Positions 13,412-38,225 of a stretch of DNA of 64,000 nt are shown piece after piece; position 1 is the stretch's first letter, and each line of letters begins with the position of its first letter. Source of the DNA: an uncultured Alphaproteobacteria bacterium (lineage in GTDB: Bacteria; Pseudomonadota; Alphaproteobacteria; RF32; CAG-239); NCBI GenBank assembly GCA_944393235.1, contig CALXZJ010000004.1:4162-68161 (forward strand), given 5' to 3'. Under the pieces are notes generated by a model that did not search any database, was not told the origin of the DNA, and saw only the letters and a list, made by a program, of their open reading frames with translations. Position numbers and translations under genes: made by a program.

Positions 13412-13985
13412 TTAAACCTGTGGCCGCATAAGATAAATAATTAAATAACAGGATATTTCAGAGTTACACATATTGCAAAAGTCATCAATTTCAGACAAAG
13501 TGACCGTACCTAAACAGTTGTTGTTTGTACAATATTGACTGCCCCAAAGTTGGGATGCATTGTAACTTTCTTCATCAGCCTGGGAGCGAAGTTGTAAAGA
13601 ATATAAATTATTGGCATTTTCTTTGGCGACTAAAATCATGTTACGGCAAATTTCAACAGCTCTTTGAGATGCTTTGCCATTAGAAATATCCATGCGGGTT
13701 GATACCTGAAAAAGCCCGATCCAAATCCGGTTTGATTTGGATAGCATTGTTTAAAAGTATATTAAAAGATTCGGCTTGTCTATTGAGCTTATACTTAAAC
13801 ATCGCTTTGGAATAACCGCTGATAGCCCCGACGCTTAAAACACCAATTATCGCCAGTACGCCGAGCATTTCAACCATACTTCTCCCGCATAGAGCCACAT
13901 CTGCTTGCCTCCTTTTATTGTGTGCTGGAGAAGAAAAACTAAAAAAATTGAACAAATTCATCAAAAGAACTCCTGAAAACTGCAA
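13412..13985 (-). pseudogene. Type IV pilin-like gene, copy 1, truncated and frameshifted. The N-terminal part is in one frame (13680-13985) and the C-terminal Cys-motif part in another frame (13412-13747). The central variable region of about 70 aa, present in the other copies, is missing.
   Basis: N-terminal ...CGRSMVEMLGVLAIIGVLSVGAISGYSKAM is identical in kind to the other four copies. The second frame encodes AVEICRNMILVAKENANNLY...C.x4.CLGTVTLSEIDDFCNMC, which aligns with the C-terminal conserved region of copies 4 and 5. The two frames overlap at 13680-13747. Confidence 0.55.
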
Positions 13986-14001: not shown

Positions 14002-14056
14002 CGTCATTCTAAACTGTTTTTTTTTTTTGCAATTTTAAAGAGTCTGGTGGGGATAA
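14002..14056 (-). promoter_or_regulatory. Conserved pilin promoter block, copy 1, with a 12-nt homopolymeric T tract (A on the coding strand) at 14017-14028.
   Basis: Block cgtcattctaaac(c/t)g-Tn-gcaattttaaagagtctggtggggataa is repeated upstream of all five pilin-like genes. On the coding strand it reads TTGC-A(n)-CGGTT-TAGAAT (-35-like TTGCAA, -10-like TAGAAT). Confidence 0.4.
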
Positions 14057-14300
14057 GTTTCTACTTATTATTTACTGTCATGCCACTGCCGAGCATTGCT
14101 CGGCAGTTTAGGCATCTCTTCTCCAAACATGCAACAGACGCCTAACCTCGAGTGCTGCGCACTCTCAGGGCGTGACAGTGTTGTATCATCACCCCATGAA
14201 CCGACGCCAGCCCCAATCCTCGTCTCCCACGAGGATACGCCAGTATCCGAGTTTTAGAGGCCCTTCTTTTTTCTTTTGTCATCTCTTCGAGGTACTGAAA
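14057..14300. repeat. Mosaic of short hairpin-forming repeat modules (modules A, B, C, D) upstream of pilin copy 1.
   Basis: Modules gtcatgccactgccgagcattgctcggcagtttaggcatctc, catgcaacagacgcctaacc, caccccatgaaccgacgcc and ccccaatcctcgtctcccacgaggatacgccagtatccgagtt recur in different order upstream of the other pilin copies (30251-30480, 38270-38360, 59791-59940, 61501-61600). Confidence 0.5.
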
Positions 14301-14408: not shown

Positions 14409-17198
14409 TTATTTTGTATTTTGCCCGTATTTTTTCAATATGCGTGCAGCTTCCCGATCATCAAGAATTTGTTCTTGATCTGGAGAATTTTTACCTTCAA
14501 TCTGCGACCATGCCGAAAAAATAACTTTACGGACACGAGATTTTCTTGGCGGAGTATAATCCACAACCGGATTTGGATTATCCGGAACAGGTATCGGTCC
14601 GGGAGGTGTCGGAAGTATCGGATCAGGTTCCGGCTCTGGTTCAGGTTCTGGCTCTGGTTCCGGTGTCGGCTCTGGTTCTGGTTCAGGTTCAGGTTCCGGT
14701 GTCGGCTCTGGTGTTGGCTCAGGTTCAGGTTCCGGCTCCGGTCTGTCAATCCGCCGCCATTGACCGTCGTCATCATGACAATCTTTAGCCAAACTAAGCC
14801 CTGTCAATTGAGTGTTTTCTGTGCCGGTTGCCAAAATAGCATCGGTTTTATCCAACATATTGTTGACAGCCAAAGCTTGTTGATCACTGATTTTGTTGCC
14901 GCATCCCAACAAACCAATAAGAGCTTCCATCTCTTGCTGATATTGGTAAAAACGCTGATTGCTATGAATAATTGTGATAATGGACGAAGTTTCTTTATTA
15001 TCAAATTCATTAGGGAACAGCTCTTTTAACCCATTCTTTATTTCGCCTTTTCCGGCGTAAGTGTTTTCCTCGGCAAAAGAAACCAAATTGCGCATTTGAT
15101 CTTCATTTAACCCCAAATCAAGCCTATCAAAACGCTTTTCCAGATAGTCATGTCCGGAAGGCGTTTCTCTTAATGTCCCGTCACCCACCTCATAAGCTTT
15201 GCGCATAAAAGCGTACAAACGGTTAAACTTATAAATGATTTCTTCTTTGGTTTTGCCGGGGAACTGATCCATAGAACCTTCCAGATTCCTATAAACTCGA
15301 TCAAGCGTAACTTCATCGCCGGTTGCTGATTTAAGAGTACCTTCGGTTGTTTGCACCAAAATATTATACTCTCTTCTGGAAATGCCCATTTCTTCACGAG
15401 AAGTATAAGTTCTTGGGAACAACCCTCCGTCAGTATTTTCTGCCGAGGCGTCAGAAACAACATTTGCTTGAGATGCAACAGTTGAACCGCCTTGAGCTTG
15501 AACAACAGTTGTATCTGTTGCCGTTGAATCTTTTACGCCAAACAAACGACCAAGCCAGCTGCCTCGGTTTTGTTTTTCTGGTGTTTCAACATTTACGGGA
15601 GCATCGCTTGAAACAGCTGCCTCAGCATTGCTTTGTCCGCGCGAAAAACCTAACTCTTGAAACACAACGTTAAAACCAAGCCCTATCAAAGCTGAAGTCG
15701 CAGCCTGTTTAAATTCTGTACTTTTTTCTTTATTGTCAGGATCTTTGACAGCAACAGCATATGCAATTGAAGCATCGGTCAATTGGGCAACCGTTGCCGT
15801 TCCTGCACGACCCAAACTGATAGCGTGGCGTGTTTCAGCAATATTAGAAGCCAAAGATACATTCAAACCATCTTTAGCGCCGCCGACCAATGTATTGGCG
15901 GCATCGGCAGCCTCCAAGCCGTCTTTCAGCCAGGCAAAGCCGGCAACCGCCAACCCGGTATTTAAGACACCGCCGATAATGTATGAACGCTTGTCTTTAC
16001 GACTGTTCATTTTGTTTTTCCACGCCTGTTTAAGGGCATCCATAAATTTCAAAGGCGTTTCGCCTTTTTCTTTTTTCTTACGATTAATTCGGCGCATTTC
16101 GGCAATAATCGGATAAACCCAAGCGCCGGCAGTATGATATGCTGCATAAGCCGCAATTGCCGGTACCAAGACGGGAGCGGCTGCCGCACCTGCTGCGCCG
16201 GCTGCCGCAGCTGCCGTCCAGTAACCAAATGCAGCATTGGCGGCAACATTGCCGATTAATTTGAATTTATTATCACTAAAGCTGCCTTTAATATTTTTCC
16301 ATATTTCATAACGATTTTTTGAAATATGATTGGCCAGTTCTTCAAATTTGTTCTTTTTTCTTTGTAAAGAAGCGGCAAGCTTGGAAAATTCAGATTCAAC
16401 GGTTTTTCCTGCTGCTTTGGCTTTATCAACAGCTTGGTTAACAAAAGTTTGCGCTTTACGTTGCAAGGCACTTATATAACGTTCAATTTGAACAGCCGTT
16501 TCGGCGCAGCAGCTTAAAATACTGTCAACCGTCATCTTGATTTTTTCTTTGCCCTGCAAAATTGAACCAAAAACTTCAGTTGCTTTTTTGCTTTGCCGGT
16601 TAACAAAATCTCTATATTCCGGGCTGCCGATAACTTGTTCTTCCTTTGTTGGTTTGTCTAAAGAAGAGGCAATGGTTGTTTGTGCAAAATCCGCAAAGAA
16701 AATTGTTTTAATTTCGTCTTTTAAAATATTATTGCGCTCGGTTTTGCTCATATTTGCAAAATCTTTATTGCCGGCCAAAATGGCTTCGGCTTTCATTTTA
16801 GCGCCGTCAAACAACAAGCTCAGATATTCATTTTTGGTTTTATCATCAACAATTTTTTCCTGATCGCCTTTGCCGTCAATAATTTCGACGCGATCTAAAA
16901 TATCGGCAATATCTTTGTTTTTTGCTCTAAATTCTTCAAAAGTCAGATCAGCGGTGTTTTCTTCCATTTTTTTATAATTGTCCGCATACACCTTGGCAGA
17001 ATCTTCTGTCAGATTATTTTCTGTCTCAAAGGATTTTAAAGCATTCAAAGCATCTTTTAAGGCCGGATTGGTCGGATCTTGTTCGCGTACGATCCGCATG
17101 GCTTCTTGCAGTTGACTTAATGGGCATAAATAAATATCGCCTTTTAAGATTTTCAAGGCTTCGTCAAAAGTCATTTTACCGGTTGTTTCTTTTGCCAT
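14409..17198 (-). CDS. Large secreted/membrane-associated repeat protein (929 aa). It has Gly/Ala-rich hydrophobic hairpin segments and a C-terminal (PE/PT)n low-complexity region. It is a paralog of the 1317-aa protein at 38754-42707.
   Basis: N-terminus MAK..., K/E-rich helical regions, central AAAAAGAAGAAAAPVLVPAIAAYAAY hydrophobic stretch followed by a basic patch, C-terminal PEPEPEPTPEPTPEPEPEPEPEP; no recognisable enzymatic motifs. Confidence 0.65.
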   Translation of the reverse strand: MAKETTGKMTFDEALKILKGDIYLCPLSQLQEAMRIVREQDPTNPALKDALNALKSFETENNLTEDSAKVYADNYKKMEENTADLTFEEFRAKNKDIADILDRVEIIDGKGDQEKIVDDKTKNEYLSLLFDGAKMKAEAILAGNKDFANMSKTERNNILKDEIKTIFFADFAQTTIASSLDKPTKEEQVIGSPEYRDFVNRQSKKATEVFGSILQGKEKIKMTVDSILSCCAETAVQIERYISALQRKAQTFVNQAVDKAKAAGKTVESEFSKLAASLQRKKNKFEELANHISKNRYEIWKNIKGSFSDNKFKLIGNVAANAAFGYWTAAAAAGAAGAAAAPVLVPAIAAYAAYHTAGAWVYPIIAEMRRINRKKKEKGETPLKFMDALKQAWKNKMNSRKDKRSYIIGGVLNTGLAVAGFAWLKDGLEAADAANTLVGGAKDGLNVSLASNIAETRHAISLGRAGTATVAQLTDASIAYAVAVKDPDNKEKSTEFKQAATSALIGLGFNVVFQELGFSRGQSNAEAAVSSDAPVNVETPEKQNRGSWLGRLFGVKDSTATDTTVVQAQGGSTVASQANVVSDASAENTDGGLFPRTYTSREEMGISRREYNILVQTTEGTLKSATGDEVTLDRVYRNLEGSMDQFPGKTKEEIIYKFNRLYAFMRKAYEVGDGTLRETPSGHDYLEKRFDRLDLGLNEDQMRNLVSFAEENTYAGKGEIKNGLKELFPNEFDNKETSSIITIIHSNQRFYQYQQEMEALIGLLGCGNKISDQQALAVNNMLDKTDAILATGTENTQLTGLSLAKDCHDDDGQWRRIDRPEPEPEPEPTPEPTPEPEPEPEPEPTPEPEPEPEPEPEPDPILPTPPGPIPVPDNPNPVVDYTPPRKSRVRKVIFSAWSQIEGKNSPDQEQILDDREAARILKKYGQNTK
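14620..14740. repeat. Hexanucleotide (ggttcN / ggctct) tandem array encoding the (Pro-Glu/Pro-Thr)n tract of the 929-aa protein.
   Basis: About 20 consecutive 6-bp units are visible directly in the sequence. The array is in frame and could expand or contract by recombination or slippage without a frameshift. Confidence 0.7.
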
Positions 17199-29510: not shown

Positions 29511-30158
29511 TTATACAAAAATCCAAATCCGGAATGTGGTGGCCGTACTTTCTTCGGTAAATCCTCGGCACAATGCATCAATTTTATCCAAATCCAACGC
29601 CGCTATGCAGCGCCCGCTTGGCTGGCATGAATCTTGTCCGTAATAAATGGTTTGTGTATTTTCATTTATACCCATGCCGTAGGTTTCAAGAGCATGTAAA
29701 ATAGGGGCATTTTCTTTTCCGGTTTTAACAACGTTCCGGCAGATTTCCACATTTAAATCATCTTCTCCGGGGTTGAGGTATACTTCGGCCATCATGGCAT
29801 TTCGCTGCGGTTTGCCGGCAAGAACGGTTGTATTCTGGCTTCCGGTGACATAAAAAGCAACCCGCAGACCAAACACATCATATACATAGGACTTGGTATC
29901 AGGCCGTATCATTTCTTTGGGAACAGCGCCAAGAGAAATAAAAGTACTGGTAATATTATTGGTAATGGTATTGTCAATCGTGATTTTGCCGGCATATAAT
30001 GCTGCCGTATTGAAAATGGTATTTAATTGCTCGGCCTGTTTATTGAGTTTATATTTAAGCATTGCCTTGGAATAACCGGCAATTGCCCCGACGGAAAGCA
30101 CGCCGATAATCGCCAGCACGCCGAGCATTTCCACCATACTTCTACCATTTTCGCGCAT
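29511..30158 (-). CDS. Type IV pilin-like protein, copy 2 (MRENG / RSMVEMLGVLAIIG... prepilin N-terminus).
   Basis: Short leader ending in Gly, Glu at +5, 20-aa hydrophobic helix matching the type IV pilin alpha1-N consensus (E-L/M-x-x-V-x-A-I-I-G-x-L); C-terminal Cys pair; RBS gggaga 7 nt upstream of ATG 30158. Confidence 0.75.
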   Translation of the reverse strand: MRENGRSMVEMLGVLAIIGVLSVGAIAGYSKAMLKYKLNKQAEQLNTIFNTAALYAGKITIDNTITNNITSTFISLGAVPKEMIRPDTKSYVYDVFGLRVAFYVTGSQNTTVLAGKPQRNAMMAEVYLNPGEDDLNVEICRNVVKTGKENAPILHALETYGMGINENTQTIYYGQDSCQPSGRCIAALDLDKIDALCRGFTEESTATTFRIWIFV

Positions 30159-30195
30159 AACATTCTCCCAAAACTGCAAAATAAATGTATTTGCT

Positions 30196-30250
30196 CGTCA
30201 TTCTAAACCGTTTTTTTTTTTTGCAATTTTAAAGAGTCTGGTGGGGATAA
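30196..30250 (-). promoter_or_regulatory. Conserved pilin promoter block, copy 2, with 12-nt T tract at 30211-30222.
   Basis: Same block as at 14002-14056; coding strand TTGC-A12-CGGTT-TAGAAT about 40 nt upstream of the start codon. Confidence 0.4.
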
Positions 30251-30480
30251 CTTACAACCGGTACTTTATCGCCATACCCCAATCCTCGTCACTCCACGAG
30301 GATACGTTAGTATCCGAGTTCTGGGGTCTCTTCCCTTTTTCTCTGTCATGCCACTGCCGAGCATTGCGCGGCAGTTTAGGCATCTCGTCTCATACATGCA
30401 ACAGACGCCTTAACCGCCGCACTATCGCACGCCGATGGCGTGACAAAGAGGAACGCCTTACCGCAAGCGTTATGCGCTCT
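30251..30480. repeat. Mosaic hairpin repeat modules (order D-A-B) upstream of pilin copy 2.
   Basis: ccccaatcctcgtcactccacgaggatacgttagtatccgagtt, gtcatgccactgccgagcattgcgcggcagtttaggcatctc, catgcaacagacgccttaaccgccgcactatcgcacgcc; each contains a 6-7 bp inverted repeat. Confidence 0.5.
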
Positions 30481-30505
30481 AAAAGCATCTGACAATATAG
30501 TGTTA

Positions 30506-36096: not shown

Positions 36097-36291
36097 GCGC
36101 ATAAATCCTTATAATTTTTGCTTTTAGAATAATGAAAATTTATTAAAATAACCTTTATAAAAAAACACTTGCAAAAATAAACTTCTGCTTGTATATTAGC
36201 GCTTGTCCTTGCCGCAAGAAAGCTTTTTTGCGGCTATACATTAACCGGGCGGCAACGCCCATTTGTTGAGAATCCATAAGGAGAATTTTAT

Positions 36292-37514: not shown

Positions 37515-38141
37515 TTATGACACTCTTTCCATATTCCATAAAATTTGGAACGAACAAGATGTTGTATCGTCGCAAGTTTTACAAAGTTCATGCATTTGTG
37601 ACAAACTTAAATCTTTTAAGCATGTTCGGTTATTTGTACAATGGGCATCGCCAAAAGCGCGATTGGTATGCTCACCTGAAACATCTTCATTATCTCTTAC
37701 AAACATTGTTTGCCACAGCAAAGCACTGCGTAGTTTAGACATTTGAAATAAGTTCATGCATATATCATAAGTATTTTGATTGATAAAAATTGCCATGCCG
37801 AAATACTGTTGTATGCCTGGTTCTAAATTATGAAATAATGAAACTTTATTATTAAAAACATCATAAATATAATAAGGGTTTTGATCTTTTATCATCTCAA
37901 CCGGTATAATACCCAATTTACTAAATAATGGAGCCATATTGTAATCTTGATGTCCCAATCTGTCTAAGTTGTCATAATGCAGCGTGGCATAATCTAAAAT
38001 GCTGCCGATTTGTTCGGTCTGTTTGTTGAGCTTATATTTCATCATCGCCTTGGAATAACCGGCAATTGCCCCGACGCTTAATACTCCAACAATTGCTAAA
38101 ACCCCGAGCATTTCAACCATACTTCTACCACATTCGCGCAT
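37515..38141 (-). CDS. Type IV pilin-like protein, copy 3 (MRECG / RSMVEMLGVLAIVG...).
   Basis: Same prepilin N-terminus; C-terminal CTNNRTCLKDLSLSQMHELCKTC motif; RBS ggagag upstream of ATG 38141. Confidence 0.75.
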   Translation of the reverse strand: MRECGRSMVEMLGVLAIVGVLSVGAIAGYSKAMMKYKLNKQTEQIGSILDYATLHYDNLDRLGHQDYNMAPLFSKLGIIPVEMIKDQNPYYIYDVFNNKVSLFHNLEPGIQQYFGMAIFINQNTYDICMNLFQMSKLRSALLWQTMFVRDNEDVSGEHTNRAFGDAHCTNNRTCLKDLSLSQMHELCKTCDDTTSCSFQILWNMERVS

Positions 38142-38179: not shown

Positions 38180-38225
38180 CGTCATTCTAAACCGTTTTTT
38201 TTTTTGCAACTTTAAAGTTTGGTAG
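38180..38225 (-). promoter_or_regulatory. Conserved pilin promoter block, copy 3 (distal half diverged), T tract 11 nt at 38195-38205.
   Basis: cgtcattctaaaccg-T11-gcaactttaaag. Confidence 0.35.

What the first reader, a model, noticed from the sequence alone, without database searches (positions are those of the whole stretch)
30196..30250. Homopolymeric A/T tract of variable length (10-12) between -35-like and -10-like hexamers in the conserved promoter block of every pilin copy
The same block recurs upstream of all five copies; on the coding strand it reads CTCTTTAAAATTGC-A(n)-CGGTTTAGAATGACG. The tract length differs between copies: 12 at 14017-14028, 12 at 30211-30222, 11 at 38195-38205, 11 at 59746-59756, and 10 at 61453-61462. 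If TTGCAA and TAGAAT are the -35 and -10 hexamers, the tract sets the spacer at n+3, that is 13-15 bp here against an optimum of 16-18. Slipped-strand mispairing in such tracts is the classic mechanism of promoter-strength phase variation, as in hifA/hifB, nadA, and opc. Variation between paralogs already shows the tract is length-unstable on evolutionary time scales.
Basis: partly seen in the sequence, partly recalled or inferred. Interest (0 to 1): 0.8.

Follow-up and report, generated by a model that had tools for sequence, protein, structure and literature searches.

The report
Slippery poly-A spacer in pilin promoters
Each of five pilin genes in this uncultured gut alphaproteobacterium has a run of 10-12 A's between the two halves of its promoter, and the run changes length repeatedly between closely related strains, so it probably acts as a mutational dial on pilin expression, a known kind of switch found here in a new host and gene family.

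Summary
Five copies of CTTTAAA(A/G)TTGC-A(n)-C(G/A)GTTTAGAAT lie upstream of five pilin-like genes, with n = 12, 12, 11, 11, 10. They are the only homopolymers of 10 or more bases in the window.

Comparison with about 100 homologous promoters shows that TTGC and TAnnAT are the conserved elements. The A run is never interrupted and sits between them. There is no room for another promoter downstream, so the "spacer tract" reading is supported.

Among conspecific strains the tract varies at three of four orthologous loci:
- the 38k copy is 11 or 12, from at least three independent events;
- the 59k copy is 11 or 12;
- the 61k copy ranges over 9-13.

At the flagged locus (30k) it is 12 in 8 of 8 assemblies. 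Family-wide, 56 of 79 intact genes have the same 15-bp spacer. The tract is therefore mutable but held near a set-point.

Reversible high-frequency switching and dependence of expression on length remain untested. This is a new member of a known kind (Mycoplasma vlp, Treponema tpr, Neisseria porA/opc).

The parts
30211..30222 (-). A12 tract of the 30k copy. It forms most of the 15-bp promoter spacer, 30206-30220.
   Evidence: The length is 12 in 8 of 8 orthologous assemblies.
30221..30226 (-). -35-like hexamer TTGCAA of the 30k copy.
   Evidence: TTGC is kept in essentially all of the roughly 100 homologous promoter blocks. The exceptions are one TTGT and several TTGA that may be post-homopolymer miscalls. 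The same hexamer occurs in the likely tRNA and rpsF promoters of the window.
30200..30205 (-). -10-like hexamer TAGAAT of the 30k copy.
   Evidence: In homologues this position reads TAGAAT, TAAAAT, TAAGAT, TATAAT, TATGAT or TAATAT. T1, A2, A5 and T6 are kept and the middle varies. It lies 41 nt before the ATG.
30234..30250 (-). Conserved upstream element TTATCCCCACCAGACTC. It combines a DnaA-box-like TTATNCNCA with GACTC, which fits GANTC.
   Evidence: It is present in the 14k, 30k and 61k copies, is one base shorter in the 59k copy, and is absent from the 38k copy.
30163..30169 (-). Shine-Dalgarno sequence GGGAGAA of the 30k pilin gene.
   Evidence: Read directly from the sequence.
29511..30158 (-). 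Type IVb-like pilin gene, 215 aa (30k copy).
14006..14032 (-). Promoter core of the 14k copy: TTGCAA, 15-bp spacer with A12 (14017-14028), then TAGAAT.
13412..13985 (-). Pilin pseudogene (14k copy). It has an internal deletion and a frameshift and reads as two ORFs.
38184..38209 (-). Promoter core of the 38k copy: TTGCAA, 14-bp spacer with A11 (38195-38205), then TAGAAT.
   Evidence: Orthologues carry n = 11 (7 assemblies) or n = 12 (4 assemblies).
37515..38141 (-). Pilin gene, 208 aa (38k copy).
59736..59761 (-). Promoter core of the 59k copy: TTGCAA, 14-bp spacer with A11 (59747-59757), then TAGAAT.
   Evidence: Orthologues carry n = 11 (5 assemblies) or n = 12 (about 10 assemblies).
59070..59693 (-). 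Pilin gene, 207 aa (59k copy).
61442..61466 (-). Promoter core of the 61k copy: TTGCAA, 13-bp spacer with A10 (61453-61462), then TAGAAT.
   Evidence: Orthologues carry n = 9, 9, 12, 12, 12, 13, 13.
60686..61330 (-). Pilin gene (61k copy) with a long hairpin-containing 5' cassette. The likely start is an internal TTG after GAGGAG, giving MQADAALCG|RSMVEML.
   Evidence: The gene call in orthologue L221 starts at that TTG.

Best explanation
The A/T run is the spacer of a sigma-70-type promoter (TTGCAA, then A(n)CGGTT, then TAGAAT). This promoter drives each member of a dispersed family of type IVb-like pilin genes.

Because the spacer is an uninterrupted run of 10-12 A's, replication slippage adds or removes single bases often. 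This changes the distance and rotation between the -35 and -10 elements, and so the transcription of that one paralog. The change is heritable and in principle reversible.

Selection holds most copies at a set-point: A12 in this clade, a 15-bp spacer. Individual copies in individual strains sit 1-3 bp off it. In this window two copies are at the set-point (30k, and the 14k pseudogene), two are at -1 (38k, 59k) and one is at -2 (61k). The expected result is strain-specific and subpopulation-specific combinations of pilin expression levels, as in a contingency locus or rheostat.

Shown: the anatomy, the conservation pattern, the pilin fold, and recurrent length polymorphism at orthologous loci.

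Inferred: that TTGCAA and TAGAAT are the elements RNA polymerase actually uses, that length changes expression, and that switching is fast enough to matter within a population.
For: - Across two deeply diverged block types, TTGC and TAnnAT are the conserved anchors. The -10 shows the classic T1 A2 .. A5 T6 pattern.
- In type B blocks only 36 nt, including the SD, separate TAAAAT from the ATG, so no other promoter fits downstream.
- No sigma-54 GG-N10-GC arrangement and no terminator are present on either strand.
- All 97 genuine blocks have uninterrupted A runs.
- The spacer mode is 15 bp in both types: A12+CGGTT and A10+CGCGAGC. Among 79 intact genes the counts are 11:1, 12:2, 13:3, 14:13, 15:56, 16:4.
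- Conspecific strains at 93-99.9% identity vary at orthologous loci. The 38k copy is 11 in 7 assemblies and 12 in 4, and each n = 12 strain has an n = 11 strain as its nearest neighbour.
- One pair of these strains (L227, L228) differs by 3 substitutions plus the tract in 3.2 kb.
- The 59k copy is 11 or 12, and the 61k copy ranges over 9-13.
- The 30k copy is 12 in 8 of 8 assemblies, including a species at 87% identity. This shows that length is constrained where the gene is kept.
- The same tract-bearing promoter precedes other exported proteins (DUF4402, a Cys-rich protein) in related genomes.
- The mechanism is established for poly(A) in M. hyorhinis vlp (PMC10502178), poly-G in T. pallidum tpr and tp0126 (PMC7864442), and porA and hifA/B (PMC3899988).
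Against: - There is no transcription start site, no read-level tract distribution and no expression data.
- The modal spacer (15 bp) is shorter than the 16-17 bp seen in two likely housekeeping promoters of the same window that use TTGCAA. The ON length is therefore unknown, and the promoter may depend on an activator.
- The sharp mode and the invariance at the 30k locus fit 'fixed structural spacer with occasional slightly deleterious slippage' as well as adaptive switching.
- Many assemblies have low coverage (4-9x), so single +/-1 calls such as L216 could be errors.
- Gene conversion among paralogous promoter blocks could explain the uniform length and purity without selection for mutability.
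Confidence: 0.58

Rival explanations
1. The A-tract is a structural promoter element selected for a fixed length. It could be a rigid or over-twisted spacer, or a site for a nucleoid-associated or activator protein working with the conserved upstream TTATNCNCA/GACTC element. On this view the length differences are slightly deleterious or neutral slippage noise that selection or gene conversion removes, and there is no adaptive phase variation.
For: - The mode is sharp at a 15-bp spacer in 56 of 79 intact genes.
- The 30k locus is invariant at 12 across up to 13% divergence.
- The widest spread (9-13) is at the 61k locus, where several alleles carry gene-killing deletions.
- Upstream elements are conserved.
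- The same promoter architecture is shared by unrelated exported-protein genes, as in a regulon signature.
Against: - 23 of 79 intact genes are off the mode.
- Changes between 11 and 12 recur at the intact 38k and 59k genes in near-identical strains.
- A structural A-tract needs only about 6 consecutive A's, yet no copy has stabilised the run with an interruption.
- Even under this view, the slippage variants would still change spacer length and hence probably expression.
Confidence: 0.3
2. The real transcription start lies elsewhere. The tract would then be an UP-like or curvature element upstream of a downstream promoter (for example TTAGAA-N17-TATTTT in the 30k copy), or part of a 5' UTR transcribed from an upstream promoter. 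Its length would not set -35/-10 spacing.
For: In the 30k copy a weak TTAGAA-17-TATTTT arrangement can be read downstream of the tract. A poor TTGTAA-19-TAAAAT lies upstream in some copies.
Against: - The downstream -10-like hexamer shifts by 2 nt between window copies and is absent in type B blocks, where the SD follows within about 30 nt.
- The upstream TTGTAA is not conserved in type B.
- By contrast, TTGC and TAnnAT are conserved everywhere.
Confidence: 0.07
3. The length differences are homopolymer errors of sequencing or assembly.
For: - Many contigs have 4-9x coverage.
- A TTGC/TTGA difference at the tract edge between the window and an assembly of the same strain looks like a post-homopolymer miscall.
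Against: - The lengths are locus-specific and reproducible. The 30k copy is 12 in 8 assemblies from three studies, while the 38k copy splits 7:4 with no link to study.
- The window's n = 11 at two loci is reproduced in an independent assembly.
- The 61k locus spans 9-13, which is too wide for miscalls.
Confidence: 0.04

Closest known systems
Mycoplasma hyorhinis vlp genes (poly(A) tract in the promoter of each paralog; Citti & Wise 1995, as summarised in PMC10502178)
   Same: Both are multigene families of surface proteins. Every paralog carries a highly conserved promoter block with an uninterrupted poly(A) run, and single-base insertions or deletions act on each gene independently.
   Different: vlp encodes lipoproteins of a wall-less Mollicute, clustered in one locus, with a longer tract (about 17-20, from my own knowledge). 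Switching there is demonstrated experimentally. Here the genes are type IVb-like pilins dispersed around an alphaproteobacterial chromosome, the tract is 10-12 with a strong set-point, and switching is untested.
Treponema pallidum tpr subfamily II, tprL and tp0126 (poly-G in promoters; PMC7864442)
   Same: A paralogous surface-protein family has homopolymers in its promoters. In tp0126 the tract lies between -35 and -10. Length varies within and between strains. Some lineages have deleted the promoter and RBS outright, as in L245 here.
   Different: The tract there is poly-G rather than poly-A. For tprE/G/J it lies upstream of the start site with a threshold rule (8 or fewer is permissive). 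It has been verified by fragment-length analysis and reporters.
Neisseria meningitidis porA (poly-G) and opc (poly-C) promoter tracts; Haemophilus influenzae hifA/hifB TA repeats (PMC3899988)
   Same: A simple repeat sits in the -35/-10 spacer, and single-unit changes give graded or ON/OFF transcription of a surface or fimbrial gene.
   Different: These are single loci rather than a family-wide cassette, the repeat chemistry differs, and the hif repeat serves a bidirectional promoter.
Helicobacter pylori sabA T-tract 'rheostat' (PMC4081817)
   Same: An A/T homopolymer next to the core promoter varies in length during infection and gives multiphasic promoter output through DNA geometry.
   Different: The sabA tract is upstream of the -35 and changes the alignment of UP-like elements. 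Here the tract is inside the spacer.
Type IVb pilins TcpA (Vibrio cholerae) and CofA (ETEC)
   Different: Sequence identity is 11-16%. The +1 residue after the Gly is Arg. Instead of one major pilin in a tcp/cof operon there are 5 or more, up to about 20, dispersed paralogs. Regulation of tcpA by ToxT has no counterpart shown here.

Membership tests
SSR-mediated promoter phase variation (contingency locus) | An uninterrupted simple repeat long enough for slipped-strand mispairing | tested here: met
   A10-A12 in the window. All 97 homologous blocks are uninterrupted.
SSR-mediated promoter phase variation (contingency locus) | The repeat sits in a spacing-critical part of the promoter, between -35 and -10 | tested here: inconclusive
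   The phylogenetic footprint places it between conserved TTGC and TAnnAT, and no alternative promoter fits. No start-site data are available.
SSR-mediated promoter phase variation (contingency locus) | Repeat length is polymorphic at the same locus among closely related strains, with homoplasy | tested here: met
   The 38k copy is 11 or 12 from at least 3 independent events. The 59k copy is 11 or 12. The 61k copy ranges over 9-13. The 30k copy is invariant.
SSR-mediated promoter phase variation (contingency locus) | High-frequency, reversible switching within a clonal population | not testable with these tools
   This needs raw reads or cultures. Only consensus assemblies were available.
SSR-mediated promoter phase variation (contingency locus) | Expression level depends on repeat length | not testable with these tools
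   There are no transcriptomes or reporters. Even the sign of the effect is unknown: the mode is 15 bp, against 16-17 bp in likely housekeeping promoters.
SSR-mediated promoter phase variation (contingency locus) | The controlled gene encodes a surface or host-interaction structure | tested here: met
   Type IVb pilin fold. Related promoters drive DUF4402 and Cys-rich secreted proteins.
Sigma-70 (RpoD) type promoter | A -35 TTGACA-like and a -10 TATAAT-like hexamer | tested here: met
   TTGCAA matches 4 of 6 and TAGAAT 5 of 6.
Sigma-70 (RpoD) type promoter | Spacer of 16-18 bp | tested here: not met
   The spacer is 13-15 bp in the window and the family mode is 15. The consensus scan found no site for this reason. 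In the Caulobacter RpoD notation TTGaCgS / GCtANAWC (motifs cited in PMC8144410), the N10-14 spacing is recalled from Malakooti et al. 1995 and was not verified here. In that notation the mode corresponds to N = 12.
Type IV pilin (class III signal peptide) | A leader ending in Gly, Glu at +5, and a hydrophobic N-terminal helix | tested here: met
   G|RSMVEMLGVLAIIGVLSVGAI is invariant in 17 homologues. Only weak HMM hits were found, to GspH and the prepilin N-terminal domain, all below the curated cut-offs.
Type IV pilin (class III signal peptide) | Pilin fold: a long alpha-1 helix packed on a beta-sheet | tested here: met
Type IV pilin (class III signal peptide) | Prepilin peptidase and assembly machinery present in the genome | not tested
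   No such gene was looked for beyond the pilin motif scan of the window.
DnaA box / CcrM (GANTC) controlled promoter | A TTATNCACA box and a GANTC site at a fixed position upstream of -35 | tested here: inconclusive
   The box is perfect in 39 of 39 type B blocks. Type A blocks have one mismatch (TTATCCCCA), including 3 window copies. The 38k copy lacks both elements. GACTC is invariant elsewhere. Binding and methylation cannot be tested here.

The most novel reading that the evidence does not exclude
These uncultured gut and rumen Alphaproteobacteria may run a combinatorial, stochastic 'pilin wardrobe'. It would consist of 10-20 dispersed type IVb pilin paralogs, plus other exported proteins, each behind its own poly(A) promoter dial. 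The genes also carry modular hairpin-bearing 5' cassettes with alternative SD and start sites, and show recurrent microhomology deletions that switch genes off permanently. This would be a Vlp- or Tpr-like surface-variation system in a commensal Gram-negative lineage. It has not been described for type IV pili, where variation is usually by gene conversion or inversion.
Probability: 0.3. Interest if true: 0.7.

Novelty: new member of a known kind. Interest (0 to 1): 0.55.

Why it matters
If tract length sets pilin transcription, a widespread but uncultured group of gut and rumen Alphaproteobacteria varies its pili by a cheap mutational dial on each of many paralogs. This bears on adhesion, phage-receptor escape and immune evasion in commensals. 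It gives a concrete marker (tract length per locus) that can be read from existing metagenomes. It also explains why these genomes assemble poorly around pilin genes. Finally, it offers a natural series (spacer 11-17 bp, identical hexamers) for asking what spacer length alphaproteobacterial RpoD prefers with an A-tract spacer.

Tried and rejected
- A scan of metagenome contigs with TTGCAAAAAAN{1,13}GTTTAGAAT was too loose.
- Sigma-54: neither TTGCA has GG 11-12 nt upstream (by eye), so this was rejected.
- Alternative downstream promoter (TTAGAA-17-TATTTT): it is not conserved in register between copies and is impossible in type B blocks.
- Terminator on either strand at the tract: none found.
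- Rfam: no RNA family in or near the blocks; the only hit in the window is a tRNA.
- Pfam on the pilins: no hit.
- Genome-typical spacer length from enrichment of TTGNNN-Nx-TAnnAT over 350 kb: too noisy to use.
- 'Compensation' between tract length (12 vs 10) and the following segment (5 vs 7 nt) as independent proof of selection on spacing: weakened, because type B can be derived from type A by AA to CG substitutions without any indel.
- Link between off-mode length and pseudogenisation: not found. 23 of 79 intact genes are off-mode, and the 14k pseudogene keeps n = 12.
- Exact-match look-up of the 208-aa 38k pilin failed. The locus was reached through the neighbouring DUF378 gene instead.

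Full report
**Observation**

On the minus strand the flagged region reads CCCCACCAGACTCTTTAAAATTGC-A12-CGGTTTAGAATGACG...GGGAGAATGTTATG. The same block occurs five times in the window (5 matches against 0.05 expected). The A runs are 12, 12, 11, 11 and 10 bases long. They are the only homopolymers of 10 or more bases in the 64 kb.

Each block precedes one of the only five ORFs that carry the prepilin-like N-terminus G|RSMVEMLGVLAIIGVLS. The five genes are single, dispersed and all on the minus strand, among housekeeping genes. The copies share about 100 nt upstream and about 60 nt downstream of the tract. An independent assembly of the same strain reproduces n = 11 at two of the copies.

**What the genes are**

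The family is very large, with more than 7,000 database proteins. In GTDB it is confined to uncultured gut and rumen Alphaproteobacteria MAGs. One further MAG is titled 'Lachnospiraceae' in its record. Individual MAGs carry 10-16 or more copies. Many copies lie within 50-350 nt of a contig end, so the conserved 5' block breaks short-read assemblies.

**What the tract is part of**

I collected about 100 promoter blocks from 80 GTDB loci, from conspecific assemblies and from the window. Two block types exist:
- Type A, the window's clade: ...TTATCCCCA-N-GACTCTTTAAAA-TTGC-A(n)-CGGTT-TAGAAT.
- Type B: ...TTATRCACA-N5-GACTCGTAAATA-TTGC-A(n)-CGCGAGC-TAAAAT.

TTGC is essentially invariant. The second hexamer reads TAGAAT, TAAAAT, TAAGAT, TATAAT, TATGAT or TAATAT. 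T1, A2, A5 and T6 are kept and the middle positions vary, which is the signature of a -10 element.

In type B only 36 nt, including the SD, separate TAAAAT from the ATG. This leaves no room for another promoter and disposes of the weak downstream alternative readable in the 30k copy. No sigma-54 arrangement and no terminator are present. The A run therefore lies between the two conserved promoter elements. All 97 genuine blocks have an uninterrupted run.

**Spacer length**

With TTGCAA and TAnnAT as the hexamers, the spacer is n+3 in type A and n+5 in type B. Both types have their mode at 15 bp (A12 and A10 respectively). Among 79 intact genes the spacer counts are 11:1, 12:2, 13:3, 14:13, 15:56 and 16:4. 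Type B can be derived from type A by AA to CG substitutions. The equal totals therefore reflect conservation of length rather than independent compensation.

The shape is a sharp mode with a tail towards shorter runs. This is what a deletion-biased slippery tract would show if selection holds it at a set-point.

Two likely housekeeping promoters in the window use the same TTGCAA with 16-17 bp spacers: the tRNA promoter (TTGCAA-16-TATTAA) and the rpsF promoter (TTGCAA-17-TATATT). The pilin set-point is thus 1-2 bp short of what looks canonical here. In the Caulobacter RpoD notation (TTGaCgS / GCtANAWC; motifs cited in PMC8144410, N10-14 spacing recalled from memory) it would be N = 12, mid-range. 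I cannot say which length gives maximal transcription.

**Instability at orthologous loci**

Using pilin alleles and neighbouring genes as handles, I fetched conspecific contigs at 93-99.9% nucleotide identity to the window. The tract lengths by locus are:

| Locus | Flanking genes | Tract length n |
|---|---|---|
| 30k | HemW-like gene, pilin, 223-aa membrane protein | 12 in 8 of 8 assemblies |
| 38k | L9, pilin, DUF378 | 11 in 7 assemblies, 12 in 4 |
| 59k | LolA, pilin | 11 in 5 assemblies, 12 in about 10 |
| 61k | histidine kinase, pilin, LolA | 9, 9, 10, 12, 12, 12, 13, 13 |

- 30k locus: the eight include a sister species at 87% identity. They also include one strain in which a 45-nt deletion between two AGAATG repeats has removed the -10 through the SD.
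- 38k locus: each n = 12 strain has an n = 11 strain as its nearest neighbour, so at least three independent changes occurred. One pair from the same study (L227, L228) differs by three substitutions plus the tract in 3.2 kb.
- 59k locus.
- 61k locus: several alleles are inactivated by a deletion that fuses the SD to ...VLAIIG.

Lengths are locus-specific, reproducible across three studies and unrelated to study of origin, so they are not assembly noise. The TTGC/TTGA difference at the tract edge may be a post-homopolymer miscall.

The tract is therefore clearly mutable on the time-scale of strain divergence. It is also clearly constrained at some loci, including the one flagged.

**Mechanism**

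The most likely reading (confidence about 0.58) is a slippage-prone spacer of a sigma-70-type promoter. Changes of +/-1 to 3 bp would alter the transcription of individual pilin paralogs heritably and reversibly, around a selected set-point of A12.
- The anatomy, the polymorphism and the pilin identity are shown.
- Use of these hexamers by RNA polymerase, the dependence of expression on length, and the switching rate are inferred.

The main rival (about 0.3) is that the A-tract is a fixed structural or protein-binding element, and that the variation is noise purged by selection or gene conversion. The sharp mode and the invariant 30k locus favour this rival. Three findings count against it:
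- the 29% of intact genes that sit off-mode;
- the recurrent changes between 11 and 12 at intact genes;
- the complete absence of stabilising interruptions in the run.

A start site elsewhere (about 0.07) and sequencing artefact (about 0.04) are unlikely.

**Comparison with known systems**

The closest system is the M. hyorhinis vlp family, in which a poly(A) run in the conserved promoter of every paralog switches each gene independently (PMC10502178). Other close systems are:
- the T. pallidum tpr genes and tp0126, with poly-G tracts, one of them between -35 and -10, and promoter deletions in some lineages (PMC7864442);
- N. meningitidis porA and opc, and H. influenzae hifA/B (PMC3899988);
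- the H. pylori sabA T-tract rheostat (PMC4081817).

The features of a contingency locus that can be tested in silico are met. These are repeat purity and length, position, polymorphism with homoplasy, and a surface-protein target. The two defining functional features, clonal high-frequency reversibility and length-dependent expression, cannot be tested here. The canonical 16-18 bp sigma-70 spacer is not met.

I found no paper describing this pilin family or its promoters. I rate it a new member of a known kind. The host (a commensal, uncultured Alphaproteobacteria lineage) and the gene family (many dispersed type IVb pilins) are new, but the mechanism is not.

Noticed in passing
L007-L086 (GTDB MAGs), e.g. 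CAVBCV, CABQIK, CAAFZY, CALXZI: The pilin family has 10-16 or more paralogs per MAG. Many matches lie 50-350 nt from a contig end, so the conserved promoter and N-terminal block fragments short-read assemblies of these genomes. One MAG is titled 'Lachnospiraceae' in its record but carries the alphaproteobacterial family, so it is probably mislabelled or contaminated.
   Followed up: partly
window 30234-30250, 14040-14056, 61474-61490; type B loci such as L008 1403-1428: A conserved element lies upstream of the -35. It is a DnaA-box-like TTATNCACA, perfect in 39 of 39 type B blocks and with one mismatch (TTATCCCCA) in type A. It is followed by an invariant GACTC, which fits the CcrM site GANTC. 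The 38k copy lacks both. This may be an activator or cell-cycle input, but that is unproven.
   Followed up: partly
window 61290-61440 and 13890-13975; L001 1179-1300; many type B loci (e.g. L013 1330-1500): Between the SD/ATG and the G|RSMVEML motif many copies carry 60-250 nt cassettes with hairpins (GTGTACA-N7-GTACAC, or the REP-like GACACTCCGGTCAAGCCGGAGTGTGAC). These are often in frame, giving long leaders. Some carry their own SD plus TTG or GTG start just before ..ALCG|RS. L001/L002 have a 36-aa in-frame insertion in an otherwise 100% identical 30k pilin.
   Followed up: partly
L245 760-800; L220 1560-1600; L235, L241, L086: Recurrent microhomology deletions silence individual pilin genes. 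In L245 the -10 through the SD is lost between two AGAATG repeats. In the others the SD is fused directly to ...VLAIIG or MLGVL, removing the start codon and the prepilin motif.
   Followed up: partly
window 13412-13985: The 14k pilin is a pseudogene. It lacks about 40-50 internal codons and is frameshifted, reading as two ORFs, yet it keeps an intact promoter block with A12.
   Followed up: yes
L042 (-) 2370, L059 (-) 1525, L063 (-) 2751 and 3571, L041 (+) 71: The same tract-bearing promoter type (TTGC-A11/12-CGGTT-TATGAT) precedes genes for small signal-peptide proteins of family DUF4402. These transcripts have a conserved hairpin in the 5' UTR. In L041 the promoter precedes a 353-aa Cys-rich secreted protein.
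   Followed up: partly
window 30240-30505, 14040-14200, 59760-59930, 61470-61640: The region upstream of the pilin promoters is itself a repeated, hairpin-rich cassette, for example GATGCCTAAACTGCCGAGCAATGCTCGGCAG. This motif occurs only next to pilin promoters (14086-14116 and 30354-30384). There are variable insertions of further hairpins and no Rfam match.
   Followed up: partly
L207 32-35, L208, L210, L211, L213, L214 versus window 59758: The base at the 5' edge of the tract alternates between C and A (TTGC vs TTGA) among assemblies with identical pilin alleles, and even between the window and an assembly of the same strain. It is either a real polymorphism that lengthens the run by one, or an Illumina post-homopolymer miscall.
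   Followed up: no
window 42929-42956 and 36169-36197: The likely promoters of a tRNA gene (TTGCAA-16-TATTAA, with an A-rich upstream region) and of the rpsF-rpsR-rplI operon (TTGCAA-17-TATATT) use the same palindromic -35 hexamer TTGCAA as the pilin promoters.
   Followed up: partly
window 14409-17198 and 38754-42707: Two very large ORFs (929 and 1317 aa) have long low-complexity Pro/Glu/Lys repeats (PEPEPEPTPEP...; KNNPKIDFEGKKPNEFDTDKG x3) and no family assignment. They lie near pilin copies.
   Followed up: no
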